From Pelagomonas calceolata (lineage: Eukaryota): DNA of 64,000 nt. Below the pieces are notes generated by a model. That model was not told where the DNA came from. It worked only from the letters and a program-made list of their open reading frames with translations, and did no database searches. The DNA lies in contig CAKKNE010000004.1 of the NCBI GenBank assembly GCA_918797485.1, positions 620,001-684,000 on the forward strand. Direction: 5' to 3'. The translations under genes and the position numbers were made by a program. This document shows positions 5,640-63,247 of this stretch, one piece after another (the stretch's first letter is position 1; each line of letters begins with the position of its first letter).

Positions 5640-5663
5640 CCTAGCGGACAGTAAGACACTAGC
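5640..5663 (+). promoter_or_regulatory. CTAG-bracketed intergenic motif copy
   Basis: CCTAGCGGACAGTAAGACACTAGC between divergent genes. Confidence 0.7.
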
Positions 5664-5752
5664 AACACCCTCAAAACTTCCGCCAGTGACCGCTGCGACC
5701 CACGTGTGCGAAACTGGCGGAACCGCTGCTGGTACACGGTAAAAAAAGCAGC

Positions 5753-8536
5753 ATGCCGACGGACCGCCTCCTCCTCGCACAAGGCGGCAGCCACCCCGCC
5801 CTGCTGGCCACCATCCGCAACGCGTGTAGGGACGACTGGAAGCTGTGCATCCTCGTCAACGTCGACGCCGCGCCGCTCGAGGAGAAGCTGTTGGCTGCAG
5901 GCGTGCCCCGCTACCGCCTGCCGCGGTCGCTGACCTACGAGGCCAAGGCGAGCATCCGCGCGTCCTTCTACAAGGGCGTCGTCCAGGCGAACTCCTGGGT
6001 CCTCGCCGCCGACGCTTTATCTGGTGTTCTTAGGTGTGAAAAGATCGCGACGCTCGTGATCGGCGGCTGCGAGAAGCTGGACGCTGCGGCCTTGTTGTTT
6101 TTAAGGCTCTTCCGCGAGCGGCGCCGGCCACATGCGCGCGTCGTCGCCTTCTCGCGGCGGTGCTGTGCTTTACATCGCGAGCCGACCCGACTGGACGGTC
6201 TCCATCTGGTCAATTATGAGATCGAGGTCGAAGGCGACGCCGCCGCCGCCGTCGTCACGCGGACGGCGTCGTCCTCACTCGCACAGAAGCGCCAGGAGGC
6301 GGCCCTGCGGCGCCTCGCGAGCGCGTGCGCGTCGTCACTCCGGCGCGCCGTGCCCGCGGCGCCGCGCGACGTCTGGAGCGCCGAGTTCGCCGCCGACGTC
6401 AAAGCAAAGGTGCCCCCCGCGCGGCGGCACACCTTCAACGACCGCCCCGTGCGGGACCTCGGAATGATCCGCCGCTTAGCAATCGAGACGTGCGCGGCCG
6501 ACGCGTCGGCGGCGCTCGAGGCCCTCGAGGTTTTTGCGAGAAGGAACGCGGCGTCGCGGGACCCTAGAGCGTGGGTCGCGTCGCGGGACTTCGATGCTTG
6601 CGTGGACGCGTGTCGCGAACGGGCCACACCTCGACACGTCGAGGCGCCGCCGAAGTGGGCGCTCCTCAAGGAGGCCCTGGCCGAGGCGACGAGCGTCGCG
6701 ATTTTGGTAGCTACAAGGGACCAGGCGCGGTCGGTCGCGTCGTTTCTCAAGGTCGGGGCGGACGCCGCGTGCCTGCGATTGAGACGGCGTCTCGTGGCGC
6801 GCGCTCTACCGCACCTACCTTCAAAGGCGTCGCGCGACACGCCCTACCAGCGCCTCGTGCGGGCCGAGCTCGATGACGCACTCGAGGAACGAGATGATGA
6901 TGGCGACCAGGCGCTCGCCGACGCGCTGGCGTTGTCGCTGGAGGAGGCCGAGGATGATGCGATAAAAGCAGCCATCGCGGCATCACTTGCTCGACGACGG
7001 TCGTCGATGCTCGGGCCGCCTCCTTCGAAGCCGATCGACCCCGAGGAGACGTGCCTCTCGCAGGGGCCGCCGCCCGAGGACAAGGCCCTCCGGCGGGCGC
7101 TGACCTTGTCCGCGCTGGACGTCGACGACGGCGGCCTGCAGCGGGCACTGGCGCTGTCCGCAGCCGAGGCGCGCACCGAAGTTGTGGATTTGACGCTGTC
7201 GCAAGGTAGTGAGGACCCGGGCCTCTCGCGGACGGCCGACGACAGCCAGGTGGAGGCCACGCAGCTCGAGGAGACGCAGCTTGTCGCGCCGCGGCGGTCC
7301 GTCGTCGACGTGACGGCGTCGCCGCCCGCGCCGGCGATCGAGGAGACGCAGCTCCTACCGCCGCCGCCGCGGCGGTCCGTCGTCGACGTTTCCTCGTCGC
7401 CGCCCGACGAGACGGCGGTCGAGGAGACGCAGCTCGTCGCGCCGGCGCCGCGGCGGTCCGTTGTTGATGTCTCGGCGACGCCGGACGACGAGGCAGGCGC
7501 GGCCCGGCGGTCTGTCGTCGACGTGACGGCGTCGCCCGCAGCTGAGCGCCCGCCCGCCGTCTACATTCTCACGGCAGAGCAGCTCGCGCGCACGCCGCTC
7601 GACGCGCTCCGGCCGCGCAAAGTTATTGTCTATGACGCCCACGCTCCTTCACTATTGCGGCACGCGCGGCGCTACGCATCCACCCGAGACGTAGTCCTGG
7701 AACGCCTCGTCGTCGCGGGGTCGTTGGAAGAGACGCTCGCGGCCCAAACGGAGGCGCGCGAGGCTCTGGCACTACAAGAACTGCGGTCTCTGCCCAAGCT
7801 CGCGTCGTCCGTACGACCACCTTCACCAGATGCGCCGTTGATTGTGGTAGACGCGCGGGAACTCCGCTCGGAAGTCCCGCGCGCCTTATACGATCGGGGC
7901 CTGCGACTGGCCGTCGCCACGCTTACCGTGGCCGACTTCGTCTTATCGTCATCCCTGGCGGTGGAGCGCAAGAACGTGGACACGAACGACCTCCACTCTT
8001 CCTTAGAATCTGGTAGGTTGTGGACGCAATTACGAGCTTTGGGCGCGGCGTATTCGACGCCTACTTTATTGGTGGAGTTCCGCGACCGCTCGCACCGCCT
8101 CGACGCGCCGACGACCTACCTGTCGCTCAAGCATACGCAGGATCGGCTCACCAAAGCTATCCTGGAGTTCCCTCGCACCAAGTTACTGTGGGCCCCCACG
8201 CCAAACGCGACGGCGGCGCTCTTCGCGGCCCTCGCCGACGGAGAACCGGACGTCGAGGCGGCCCAGAAGCATAGAGATGATGGCGACGCGGCGTTTCGGT
8301 TTTTGGAGAAACTTCCGGGCCTGGAGCCGCCACGGCCCGACCTCCAGGGGCATTCCCTAGCGCAGCTCGCGTCTCTCGATACAGATGCTTTGACGCGGAT
8401 CCTGGGAAGCGACCGCGCGCGGCGCTTCGCCGCATTCTGCACGCGACCGATGGAGCCCGTGCCCCTTTCCGAGATTGAGAAGAACCAACCGAAGAGAAAA
8501 CGGGGCCGGAGCCCGCCGCGGCCGCGGAAGCGATGA
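5753..8536 (+). CDS. ERCC4: XPF/ERCC4/Rad1 structure-specific endonuclease
   Basis: Degenerate helicase-like N-terminus, PPKWxLL motif, nuclease motifs IVVDARE..ADFVLS..VERK..DLxSSLxSGRL, C-terminal HhH-like region. Confidence 0.85.
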   Translation: MPTDRLLLAQGGSHPALLATIRNACRDDWKLCILVNVDAAPLEEKLLAAGVPRYRLPRSLTYEAKASIRASFYKGVVQANSWVLAADALSGVLRCEKIATLVIGGCEKLDAAALLFLRLFRERRRPHARVVAFSRRCCALHREPTRLDGLHLVNYEIEVEGDAAAAVVTRTASSSLAQKRQEAALRRLASACASSLRRAVPAAPRDVWSAEFAADVKAKVPPARRHTFNDRPVRDLGMIRRLAIETCAADASAALEALEVFARRNAASRDPRAWVASRDFDACVDACRERATPRHVEAPPKWALLKEALAEATSVAILVATRDQARSVASFLKVGADAACLRLRRRLVARALPHLPSKASRDTPYQRLVRAELDDALEERDDDGDQALADALALSLEEAEDDAIKAAIAASLARRRSSMLGPPPSKPIDPEETCLSQGPPPEDKALRRALTLSALDVDDGGLQRALALSAAEARTEVVDLTLSQGSEDPGLSRTADDSQVEATQLEETQLVAPRRSVVDVTASPPAPAIEETQLLPPPPRRSVVDVSSSPPDETAVEETQLVAPAPRRSVVDVSATPDDEAGAARRSVVDVTASPAAERPPAVYILTAEQLARTPLDALRPRKVIVYDAHAPSLLRHARRYASTRDVVLERLVVAGSLEETLAAQTEAREALALQELRSLPKLASSVRPPSPDAPLIVVDARELRSEVPRALYDRGLRLAVATLTVADFVLSSSLAVERKNVDTNDLHSSLESGRLWTQLRALGAAYSTPTLLVEFRDRSHRLDAPTTYLSLKHTQDRLTKAILEFPRTKLLWAPTPNATAALFAALADGEPDVEAAQKHRDDGDAAFRFLEKLPGLEPPRPDLQGHSLAQLASLDTDALTRILGSDRARRFAAFCTRPMEPVPLSEIEKNQPKRKRGRSPPRPRKR

Positions 8537-8656
8537 GGTCAGTGCGCGTCGCGGCCGGCACTGCCCCGCGGCGCCGGACCGTCGTCCGGGCGCGTGGAGT
8601 CGGAGCACTACCTAGACGCTGCCGCCGCGATGTGTGATTAAGAACAAGATTGTAAG

Positions 8657-62129: not shown

Positions 62130-62133
62130 TGAA

Positions 62134-63045
62134 CTAACTAACAGTTTTCTTAGGACGCTTCACGAGGCGCTCGAGCTCGTCCAGACCCGGACAAGGCCGC
62201 CTATTTCTAGCAGGGAGCAGCCTCGCCAATGCCAGCGCCACCTGGGCGTTCGGCCTCGCCGGCAACACGGAACGCAGTACGCCGACGTCGCGTTGTGACG
62301 CGAGCCTCGGAATCCATTTGGAAGCGCGCTTGTGCGACCGCGCCACTAGAGCGGCACATATCGCAAGTCGAGCCGCCGGCCACGCCGCAGAGAGCTCCTT
62401 GACCAATGCTTCAGCAGCAGTATCAGAAGAAAACAGGTCCGTCTCGACCAGGACGGGTACCACCACGTTCGCCAGTGTACATGGAGCACAAGTCGCGAGA
62501 AATTCCCGATTGATCTTCCGCTTCCGTTTTTTCTTGGATGAGGAAAACGCCCGCAACACATCATCAACAAGCTTAGCAGAAGCACTCCGTAGACCCTGGA
62601 GGTGCTCAGCTTGCGGCCTCCAGTACGTGGCATCGAAGAACCGCAATAATTCGTCGCAAGCCGCCCGTAACACGCCGTCGGCGGGCAGCTTTTGATGCGT
62701 AATCCCGTGCCGCACGTCGACGAGCCAGGTCGGCAGGCCCGCCTGCTCCGCGAGTGCATTCAACGGTTTTGCATCCCGGCCCGTTTGGCCGACGTCCAAC
62801 GCGCCGTTCACGGCCCTCGTTACCGCAGCCGCGCGCGCGAGCGACGCCGTCTGCGGGTCGAGGTCGTCGATGGCTATGAGTGCGGCCGTCGCCTCGACGG
62901 CGTGGGGCACGTTTCCCCTTAAACGCCACGTCCGGCAGCGGGCCACCGCTCTCATTCGCGGTTCGGGCTGTTGGGCGTAGAGGCCCGCATACACAAGTTG
63001 CCACTCGGCCCAGTCGCGCCAGGGGACGACGCGGGGCAGGGACAT
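62134..63045 (-). CDS. LAS1: LAS1 HEPN pre-rRNA endonuclease
   Basis: VVPWRDWAEW, WRLRGNVPHAVEATA, GLPTWLVDVRHGITHQKLP, YW. Confidence 0.92.
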   Translation of the reverse strand: MSLPRVVPWRDWAEWQLVYAGLYAQQPEPRMRAVARCRTWRLRGNVPHAVEATAALIAIDDLDPQTASLARAAAVTRAVNGALDVGQTGRDAKPLNALAEQAGLPTWLVDVRHGITHQKLPADGVLRAACDELLRFFDATYWRPQAEHLQGLRSASAKLVDDVLRAFSSSKKKRKRKINREFLATCAPCTLANVVVPVLVETDLFSSDTAAEALVKELSAAWPAARLAICAALVARSHKRASKWIPRLASQRDVGVLRSVLPARPNAQVALALARLLPARNRRPCPGLDELERLVKRPKKTVS

Positions 63046-63223
63046 CGGCTGTCTGCAGGGGGCTGGTTGCAGCGGCGCTGGGATTGCGATGAGAGGCGAA
63101 AGTTGGTTGCAGCTTGGCAGCACGGCAGCAGTCGTCAAAATTATTGATTCCTACGACGTGTATGTGATCGTAGCGCGCAAATTGCCGCTGCAAAGAGGCA
63201 TGCAAAGGACAGCTTGCGTGCTT

Positions 63224-63247
63224 GCTAGTGCCTTACATGACGCTAGC
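63224..63247 (-). promoter_or_regulatory. CTAG-bracketed intergenic motif copy
   Basis: rc GCTAGCGTCATGTAAGGCACTAGC between divergent LAS1 and TPR genes. Confidence 0.7.

What the first reader, a model, noticed from the sequence alone, without database searches (positions are those of the whole stretch)
5640..63247. A ~24-bp CTAG-bracketed motif marks most promoters in the window
Seen: consensus GCTAGC-N3-5-(TG)TAAGACACTAGC at 5640, 9627(-), 11935, 14112(-), 20099(-), 22999(-), 28482, 30723, 31570, 35099, 36427, 57604(-), 60105 and 63224(-). Degenerate copies sit at ~47476, ~50722 and ~52850, and half-sites at ~25338/25400. Every copy I found is in a divergent or 5' intergenic gap, typically ~50-400 bp from an ATG, in either orientation. 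I saw none in assigned CDSs or between convergent genes. Two CTAG half-sites at nearly fixed spacing suggest a dimeric binder. Inference: a lineage-specific general (bidirectional) promoter or nucleosome-free-region element. I know of no named element matching it. Alternative: a transposon terminus or footprint.
Basis: partly seen in the sequence, partly recalled or inferred. Interest (0 to 1): 0.8.

Follow-up and report, generated by a model that had tools for sequence, protein, structure and literature searches.

The report
Genome-wide promoter element of Pelagomonas
A long, lopsided 24-base palindrome sits in about half to two-thirds of the gene-start regions examined in this open-ocean alga (likely Pelagomonas calceolata), mostly 13-36 bases from where the mapped RNAs begin and in either orientation; it is likely the landing site of an unidentified master DNA-binding factor that opens promoters.

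Summary
The motif is real and extends far beyond the window. All 14 named copies are present (11 strict matches against 0.03 by chance). The same 19-base core occurs at 127 sites in 124 marine-metagenome loci; proteins of three of them match Pelagomonas calceolata. It lies in 32 of 62 unselected gaps that hold a gene start, 0 of 55 convergent gaps and none of the window's coding DNA. Stranded RNA reads put 5' ends 13-36 nt from its edge at 4 of 5 promoters, on either side. In a paralogue family it lies 54-68 bp from the ATG in both orientations. It carries about 32 bits, both arms are nearly always present, and a C/A mismatch between the arms is fixed. No target-site duplications, hairpin covariation or TATA boxes were found, so a transposon end or stem-loop is unlikely. 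Most likely it binds an abundant asymmetric factor acting like yeast Abf1/Reb1 or Drosophila DREF/M1BP (inferred; binder and chromatin untested). It is neither required nor sufficient for expression in the window. The 25338/25400 half-sites are not significant. I found no description in ten literature searches or in this scan's earlier notes.

The parts
5640..5663 (+). element copy between divergent ankyrin/TPR (-) and ERCC4/XPF (+) genes; RNA 5' end at 5699, 36 nt past its 3' edge
9627..9651 (-). 25-bp copy between NifU (-) and patatin (+); NifU RNA 5' ends at 9599-9602, 25-28 nt past its 3' edge
11935..11958 (+). copy in a tandem gap; a spliced + transcript contig begins at 11983, 25 nt past it (contig end, weaker evidence)
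14112..14135 (-). variant copy between an Exo_endo_phos2-family gene (-) and GST (+); GST 5' ends at 14168-14170, 33-35 nt from its 5' edge; the other transcript contig reaches 14091
15940..15961 (-). weak candidate copy upstream of the lectin-repeat gene (p 0.01; uncertain)
20099..20122 (-). canonical copy in a divergent gap
22999..23018 (-). short 20-bp copy in a divergent gap, before a SAM-domain gene
28482..28504 (+). canonical 23-bp copy 55 bp before an ion-channel-like ORF that has almost no sense reads
30723..30746 (+). canonical copy in a divergent gap
31570..31591 (+). 22-bp copy before cyclophilin; RNA 5' ends at 31604-31620, 13-29 nt past it
35099..35122 (+). canonical copy in a divergent gap; Mpv17 RNA 5' end at 35252, 130 nt away (the exception)
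36427..36450 (+). copy at the left edge of a lower-GC block; reads of a diverged copy or allele cover positions on both sides of it
47476..47495 (+). short 20-bp copy between a small spliced gene (-; ribosomal protein S21 by my recall of the translation, not tested) and peptidase C69 (+)
50722..50745 (-). degenerate copy, right arm only well kept (p 0.04)
52850..52873 (-). near-symmetric copy between thioredoxin (-) and an S1-domain gene (+); a weaker second hit at 52933-52954
57604..57627 (-). variant copy in a tandem gap
60105..60127 (+). canonical 23-bp copy before an armadillo-repeat gene
63224..63247 (-). copy between Las1 (-) and a TPR gene (+, start taken at 63388)

Best explanation
This 24-bp pseudo-palindrome lies just upstream of RNA starts at roughly half or more of the promoter regions examined in this alga (likely Pelagomonas calceolata) and is likely the binding site of one abundant, lineage-specific general regulatory factor. 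Shown: consensus (A)GCTAGCG-K-C-C-T-G-TAAGACACTAGC(AA), 20-25 bp; confinement to gaps that hold a gene start; either orientation; RNA 5' ends mostly 13-36 nt from either edge; no TATA box beside it. Inferred: the binder has two unequal DNA-reading modules (a heterodimer, or one protein with two domains on a flexible linker), one per CTAG arm, because the arms are strictly unequal, nearly always occur together and tolerate a spacer that varies by several bases. Inferred by analogy: it keeps a nucleosome-free gap open and lets Pol II start about 30 bp away on one or both sides, so that divergent gene pairs share one site. It would be permissive rather than an on-switch.
For: Placement: 126 of 127 exact metagenome copies lie outside predicted CDS; of the 31 with genes called on both sides within 600 bp, 14 are divergent, 16 tandem, 1 convergent. 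All 20 unselected degenerate copies are intergenic (1.8 expected from shuffles). 32 of 62 promoter-bearing gaps against 0 of 55 convergent gaps; length-aware p 0.006. In tandem gaps the distance to the ATG is 66-301 bp in 34 of 35, while the distance to the upstream stop runs from 47 to 1150 bp. Orientation: median distance to the ATG 179 bp on the 3' side and 178 bp on the 5' side in 34 divergent cases. One paralogue family has the site 54-68 bp from the ATG in 5 of 6 members, 3 sense and 2 antisense; L022 and L053 have it at the same place, flipped. RNA: 5' pile-ups within 36 nt at 4 of 5 motif promoters with pile-ups, p 0.006 against a uniform position between motif and ATG; 8 of 13 pile positions directly follow an A (p 0.002), which suggests true starts. 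Anatomy: CG/TG arm pairs 30, TG/TG 3, CG/CG 0 among 61 unselected CTAG pairs; only 2 right arms without a TAGC upstream, both with a degenerate left arm; about 32 bits. TATA box in 0 of 122 and 1 of 126 flanks. Homologous promoters keep the 19 fixed bases while 60-bp flanks are 52-73% alike, unrelated flanks 50%.
Against: No binder, footprint, chromatin or reporter data. The RNA test rests on 5 promoters in ordinary RNA-seq of one sample; one 5' end is 130 nt away, and 4 of 21 pile-up rows were not shown. Not sufficient: the ORF at 28560 has a canonical copy 55 bp upstream and sense depth under 0.5. Not required: genes at 25096, 25601 and 27516 have reads without a significant copy. Reads of a diverged copy cover both sides of the 36427 site. 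In tandem gaps 23 of 35 copies point with the gene, so orientation may not be fully neutral. The conserved homologous pairs were both found by the motif, which biases that test, and the loci were picked by the whole motif, which biases the count of solo arms. Gene models in the loci are my own single-exon predictions. The 32 bits are inflated by the score threshold.
Confidence: 0.72

Rival explanations
1. It is a true core-promoter element read by a lineage-specific basal initiation factor (working like SNAPc on the PSE, recalled), which replaces the TATA box and measures the start site at a set distance.
For: 5' ends at 25-36 nt in three promoters, and contig ends at 21 and 25 nt; no TATA box; constant 54-68 bp to the ATG in a paralogue family; information content far above the roughly 13 bits needed to pick some 8,000 sites (my arithmetic).
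Against: Starts spread over 13-36 nt and once 130 nt; they occur on both sides of an asymmetric site; a third to a half of promoter gaps lack it, and some of those genes are expressed.
Confidence: 0.13
2. It is a chromosome-architecture or replication site (insulator, cohesin or condensin loader, origin determinant) that lies in promoters because the binder needs open DNA.
For: Long asymmetric motif with fixed polarity; presence does not track expression at several window genes.
Against: One copy per 3.8 kb is dense for origins (general knowledge); the tight link to RNA starts and ATG distance is not predicted; reads cover both sides of the 36427 copy. It does not exclude the best explanation: yeast GRFs have such second jobs (PMC5052057, search listing only).
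Confidence: 0.07
3. It is the relic, end or excision footprint of a transposon that prefers promoters, with no present function.
For: Inverted CTAG arms; an ~85-bp dispersed repeat and a ~30-bp companion motif lie beside a minority of copies; the genome has active DNA-transposon-like introners.
Against: No target-site duplication at any of 24 boundary choices in 127 copies; information falls to background within 3-5 bp on each side; one copy per gap as a rule; kept at homologous promoters whose flanks have diverged almost to background. An ancient origin from a domesticated transposase is not excluded.
Confidence: 0.04
4. It works as a DNA cruciform or RNA hairpin (REP-like or Helitron-like end).
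For: The minus strand of the 30723 copy folds fully with G-T pairs (z -3.8).
Against: Six of 8 strands tested have z above -2.6, and the commonest form is at shuffle level; no pair covaries in 35 unselected copies, and a C/A mismatch is kept in 33 of 35; perfectly paired CG/CG arms are absent; no Rfam match; mostly upstream of the RNA.
Confidence: 0.04

Closest known systems
Yeast general regulatory factor sites (Abf1, Reb1, Rap1, Cbf1, Rsc3); passages of PMC3875857 and PMC2897762 read
   Same: In many promoters, little strand specificity, bidirectional initiation, lineage-specific repertoire; Abf1's site is bipartite (recalled).
   Different: No sequence likeness (recalled motifs); this single element is longer (24-28 bp, about 30 bits) and covers about half of the promoter gaps alone; nucleosome depletion and binder untested.
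Drosophila DRE/DREF and Motif 1/M1BP housekeeping-promoter elements; passages of 10.1101/2022.09.30.509643 read
   Same: Sequence-specific site close to TATA-less starts, shared by many unrelated housekeeping genes.
   Different: Those motifs are 8-10 bp (recalled) and, by that paper, do not instruct start position; here starts cluster 13-36 nt from the edge in 4 of 5 cases. No animal factor is implied.
Toxoplasma AP2XI-5 GCTAGC motif; passages of review PMC6631176 read
   Same: The hexamer GCTAGC equals the left arm and nearly the right arm; AP2 domains can act in tandem or as heterodimers, which makes AP2 proteins a lead for the binder.
   Different: A single 6-bp palindrome regulating a gene subset in a distant lineage; no second arm or fixed spacing is described in the passages read. 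A lead, not a test.
Bacterial REP elements and Helitron or MITE ends (recalled)
   Same: Short imperfect palindrome in extragenic DNA, with CTAG/GTAG-like feet.
   Different: Sits at 5' rather than 3' gaps; no covariation, no target-site duplication, no linked transposase seen.

Membership tests
General regulatory factor (GRF)-type promoter site | Present in many functionally unrelated promoters, rare elsewhere | tested here: met
   32 of 62 promoter gaps, 0 of 55 convergent gaps, 0 in 53 kb of window CDS; unrelated Pfam families
General regulatory factor (GRF)-type promoter site | Orientation-independent, serves starts on both sides | tested here: met
   179 against 178 bp; flipped copies in homologues; 5' ends on both sides; mild sense bias, 23 of 35, in tandem gaps
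General regulatory factor (GRF)-type promoter site | Bound by an abundant sequence-specific protein | not testable with these tools
   no binding data available
General regulatory factor (GRF)-type promoter site | Causes nucleosome depletion in vivo | not testable with these tools
   only a GC dip to 0.52-0.60 around the site, part of which is the motif itself
Core promoter element read by basal machinery (TATA- or PSE-like) | Fixed distance to the start site | tested here: inconclusive
   13-36 nt in 4 of 5 promoters, 130 nt in one
Core promoter element read by basal machinery (TATA- or PSE-like) | Fixed orientation to the start site | tested here: not met
   GST starts on the 5' side; both orientations in paralogues
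MITE, transposon end or footprint | Target-site duplication | tested here: not met
   observed equals permuted at 24 boundary choices, 127 copies
MITE, transposon end or footprint | Extended homology among copies | tested here: not met
   information ends within 3-5 bp; BLAST links only gene families and one small repeat family
MITE, transposon end or footprint | Empty orthologous sites | tested here: inconclusive
   pairs were selected by the motif; L006 has the site at 254 bp rather than about 60 bp from the ATG
REP-like or RNA hairpin | Covarying stem | tested here: not met
   no pair above permutation at p 0.05 in 35 copies; fixed mismatch
AP2-domain (AP2XI-5-like) site | Recognition by an AP2 domain | not tested
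   only the shared hexamer

The most novel reading that the evidence does not exclude
One roughly 30-bit bipartite element, read by a single lineage-specific factor (possibly a domesticated transposase or AP2-type protein), is the principal promoter signal of thousands of Pelagomonas genes: it stands in for the TATA box and sets Pol II starts about 30 bp from either edge. A eukaryote would then define its promoters with a long, operator-like hard-wired site rather than with short degenerate motifs and base composition.
Probability: 0.3. Interest if true: 0.85.

Novelty: new variant of a known kind. Interest (0 to 1): 0.72.

Why it matters
How promoters are specified in compact algal genomes is little studied, and the main text of the P. 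calceolata genome preprint never uses the words 'motif' or 'promoter'. A single long element at an extrapolated 5,000-8,500 sites makes the question directly testable: one oligo for pull-down, two arms to mutate. If it is right, it offers a 24-bp bidirectional promoter part for an abundant oceanic picoalga, a marker for gene starts in annotation, and a near-diagnostic tag for pelagophyte DNA in metagenomes; it already flagged six likely contaminant pieces in prokaryote MAGs. Its length, fixed asymmetry and prevalence are unusual for a eukaryotic factor site.

Tried and rejected
No whole genome is held for the window, and the metagenome records are not searchable by handle, so genome-wide counts are extrapolated. 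Viruses: 0 strict matches; 19 single loose matches, none clustered, taken as chance and not examined further. Prokaryote genomes: 11 matches. Five look like chance: two in uvrB-like coding DNA, two in one shared gene, one in Williamsia. Six marine-MAG pieces have canonical spacers and are likely algal contaminants; five of those MAGs hold only 1-2 copies each. Target-site duplication, hairpin covariation, Rfam and TATA box were negative. Whether flipped copies arose by micro-inversion or by turnover cannot be told: flanks are at or near background identity in both senses. Base composition at 5-bp steps beside the motif showed no initiator signal. Run X4 was identical to the window in the pieces shown, so it gave no variation test, and the metatranscriptome X15 was not used for motif variation. 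Literature; I saw listings only, except passages. One search listed 30 of 74 papers holding the 10-mers, all unrelated by title; 44 were not seen. The preprint's supplements (closed) and its journal version were not seen and could mention the motif. Earlier scan notes by place, sequence and words held nothing on it.
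Full report
Observation. The window is 63% GC, gene-dense and intron-poor. The pattern CTAGCG-N8-12-RCRCTAG occurs 11 times against 0.03 in shuffles, and 11 of 28 CTAG pairs within 60 bp are exactly 18 apart. A model trained on 18 copies from outside the window finds a site in 16 of 24 promoter-bearing gaps (0 of 200 shuffles each), weak sites at 50722 and 15940, nothing significant at 25338/25400 (p 0.49), and nothing in 8 convergent or other non-coding stretches.

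Organism. A NifU search gave 98-99% unnamed environmental relatives and Chrysophaeum taylorii at 65% as the best hit with an organism name. Two window proteins lie on a 5.3-Mb NCBI contig. The 63% GC and a spliced 211-nt repeated intron fit the genome preprint (passages). The species assignment is an inference.

Extent. The unselected positions are also biased: spacer K-C-C-T-G, an A before and AA after; information falls to background within 3-5 bp. Viral contigs have no strict match. Prokaryote genomes have 11, five of them apparent chance and six likely algal contamination in marine MAGs. With 17 copies per 64 kb and about half of the promoter gaps occupied, I extrapolate 5,000-8,500 copies per genome; this was not counted.

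Placement. With my own single-exon gene model trained on window genes, 126 of 127 copies are outside coding DNA. Of 31 with genes called on both sides within 600 bp, 14 are divergent, 16 tandem and 1 convergent; the other 96 lacked a call on one or both sides. A scan with a window-trained matrix found 20 further copies not selected by the search, all intergenic, against 1.8 expected. Leaving out the gaps that held the search seed and gaps over 1,500 bp, 32 of 62 promoter-bearing gaps carry a site and 0 of 55 convergent gaps do; because convergent gaps are short, the length-aware p is 0.006. In tandem gaps the site follows the ATG (66-301 bp in 34 of 35) and not the upstream stop (47-1150 bp). 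In 34 divergent cases the medians are 179 and 178 bp on the two sides.

RNA. Stranded poly(A) reads of one sample were laid on 19500-37200 and 5200-15200; 10 listed copies with a strong score lie in those stretches plus 36427, and 5 of their promoters gave 5' pile-ups. These lie at 5699 (36 nt from the motif edge), 9599-9602 (25-28), 14168-14170 (33-35, on the motif's 5' side), 31604-31620 (13-29) and 35252 (130). Four of 5 within 36 nt has p 0.006 against a uniform position between motif and ATG. Eight of 13 pile positions follow an A (p 0.002), which suggests real starts offset by one. Contig ends at 11983 and 14091 agree (25 and 21 nt) but are weaker evidence. A sixth pile-up, 25295-6, has no significant motif nearby. 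Against a simple on-switch: the ORF at 28560 has a canonical site and almost no sense reads, genes at 25096, 25601 and 27516 are expressed without one, and reads of a diverged copy cover both sides of the 36427 site.

Homologous promoters. With motifs masked, BLAST links several pairs. L008/L075, L036/L065 and L061/L099 keep the 19 fixed bases with changed spacers while their 60-bp flanks are 52-73% alike; unrelated flanks average 50%. Both members were found by the motif, so this is biased. More telling: in one paralogue family the site ends 54-68 bp before the ATG in 5 of 6 members, three sense and two antisense (the sixth has it at 254 bp), and L022/L053 have it at the same place in opposite orientations. 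Position appears constrained and orientation is not. Micro-inversion and turnover cannot be told apart.

Anatomy. The element is a pseudo-palindrome, GCTAG-CG on the left and GCTAG-TG on the right read inward. Among 61 unselected CTAG pairs spaced 12-22, the arm pairs are CG/TG 30, CG/TA 4, TG/TG 3 (two are one locus) and CG/CG 0. A good right arm without a TAGC upstream occurs twice, both times with a degenerate left arm. The 35 unselected copies carry about 32 bits (inflated by the threshold). No arm pair covaries, and the C/A mismatch is kept in 33 of 35. Folding is at shuffle level for the commonest form and strong only for some copies. There is no target-site duplication, no Rfam match and no TATA box in the flanks.

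Mechanism. Shown: a long, polar, bipartite site tied to gene starts, working in either orientation, near RNA 5' ends on either side. Inferred: a double-stranded DNA site for an abundant protein with two unequal reading heads. Inferred by analogy with yeast GRFs, which deplete nucleosomes, act bidirectionally and differ between lineages (passages), and with DREF/M1BP at housekeeping promoters (passages): the protein holds a gap open and licenses initiation about 30 bp away. I put this at 0.72; a basal factor that measures the start site at 0.13; an architectural or replication role at 0.07; a transposon relic and a hairpin at 0.04 each. AP2-domain proteins are a lead because Toxoplasma AP2XI-5 binds GCTAGC (review passage); this was not tested.

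Novelty. It works like a GRF site; membership cannot be closed without binder and chromatin data. Ten searches of the paper library showed no description, and the preprint's main text has no 'motif' or 'promoter'. Its supplements, its journal version and subscription journals were not seen. Earlier notes of this scan hold nothing on it; one unchecked note reports a roughly 20-base core in two-way promoters of Ostreococcus, a possible parallel. Verdict: a real, apparently undescribed, lineage-wide promoter element; a new variant of a known kind, unusual in length, asymmetry and prevalence; interest 0.72.

Noticed in passing
L009:762, L023:3, L024:1449, L059:3504, L071:747, L090:170, L094:340, L103:349, L106:350: A ~30-bp companion motif (core CAGGGCTCCCGCG, then TTTAG) lies within about 30 bp 5' of the element in the same orientation in 9 of 11 matches; also seen in L050. 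Possibly a second factor site; absent from the window.
   Followed up: partly
L023:3126-3212, L047:2172-2257, L082:208-282, L083, L033, L078, L059: An ~85-bp dispersed repeat, 82-96% alike, with a 16-base hairpin and CTAG-rich end, lies about 25-160 bp 3' of the element in the same orientation in 6 of 7 loci; no Rfam match in the four of these loci scanned. Possibly a small mobile element that favours these promoters.
   Followed up: partly
window 36300-46500: Block with lower-GC stretches: an EF-hand ORF, 12.7 copies of a 141-bp repeat (38317-40096), and a 1,997-aa ORF with weak RAMA and TET-associated glycosyltransferase hits, both below Pfam's cut-off; RNA reads at 36306-36980 come from a diverged copy or allele. 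It looks like an inserted mobile or viral-like element.
   Followed up: partly
window 24697-24909 and 32013-32095: A 211-nt spliced intron with terminal inverted repeats and many look-alike reads (introner-type; relatives in L029, L030, L005), and an 81-nt GT-AG intron in cyclophilin.
   Followed up: partly
L061, L099, L100, L041, L006, L039, L019, L001: An expanded gene family with a Cys-rich N-terminus and RINGv/TPR hits (for L019, L001) recurs among motif-bearing loci.
   Followed up: partly
L125, L126, L131, L132, L133, L135: Marine prokaryote MAGs in GTDB hold pieces with the canonical element and partly eukaryote-like ORFs, likely algal contamination or chimeric contigs.
   Followed up: partly
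window 46140-46330 and 46370-46490: A direct repeat of about 40 bp and short AT-richer repeats after the giant ORF, seen by eye; perhaps the right end of the inserted block.
   Followed up: no
window 16368-17189: A 429-bp near-perfect internal duplication in a lectin-repeat gene.
   Followed up: no
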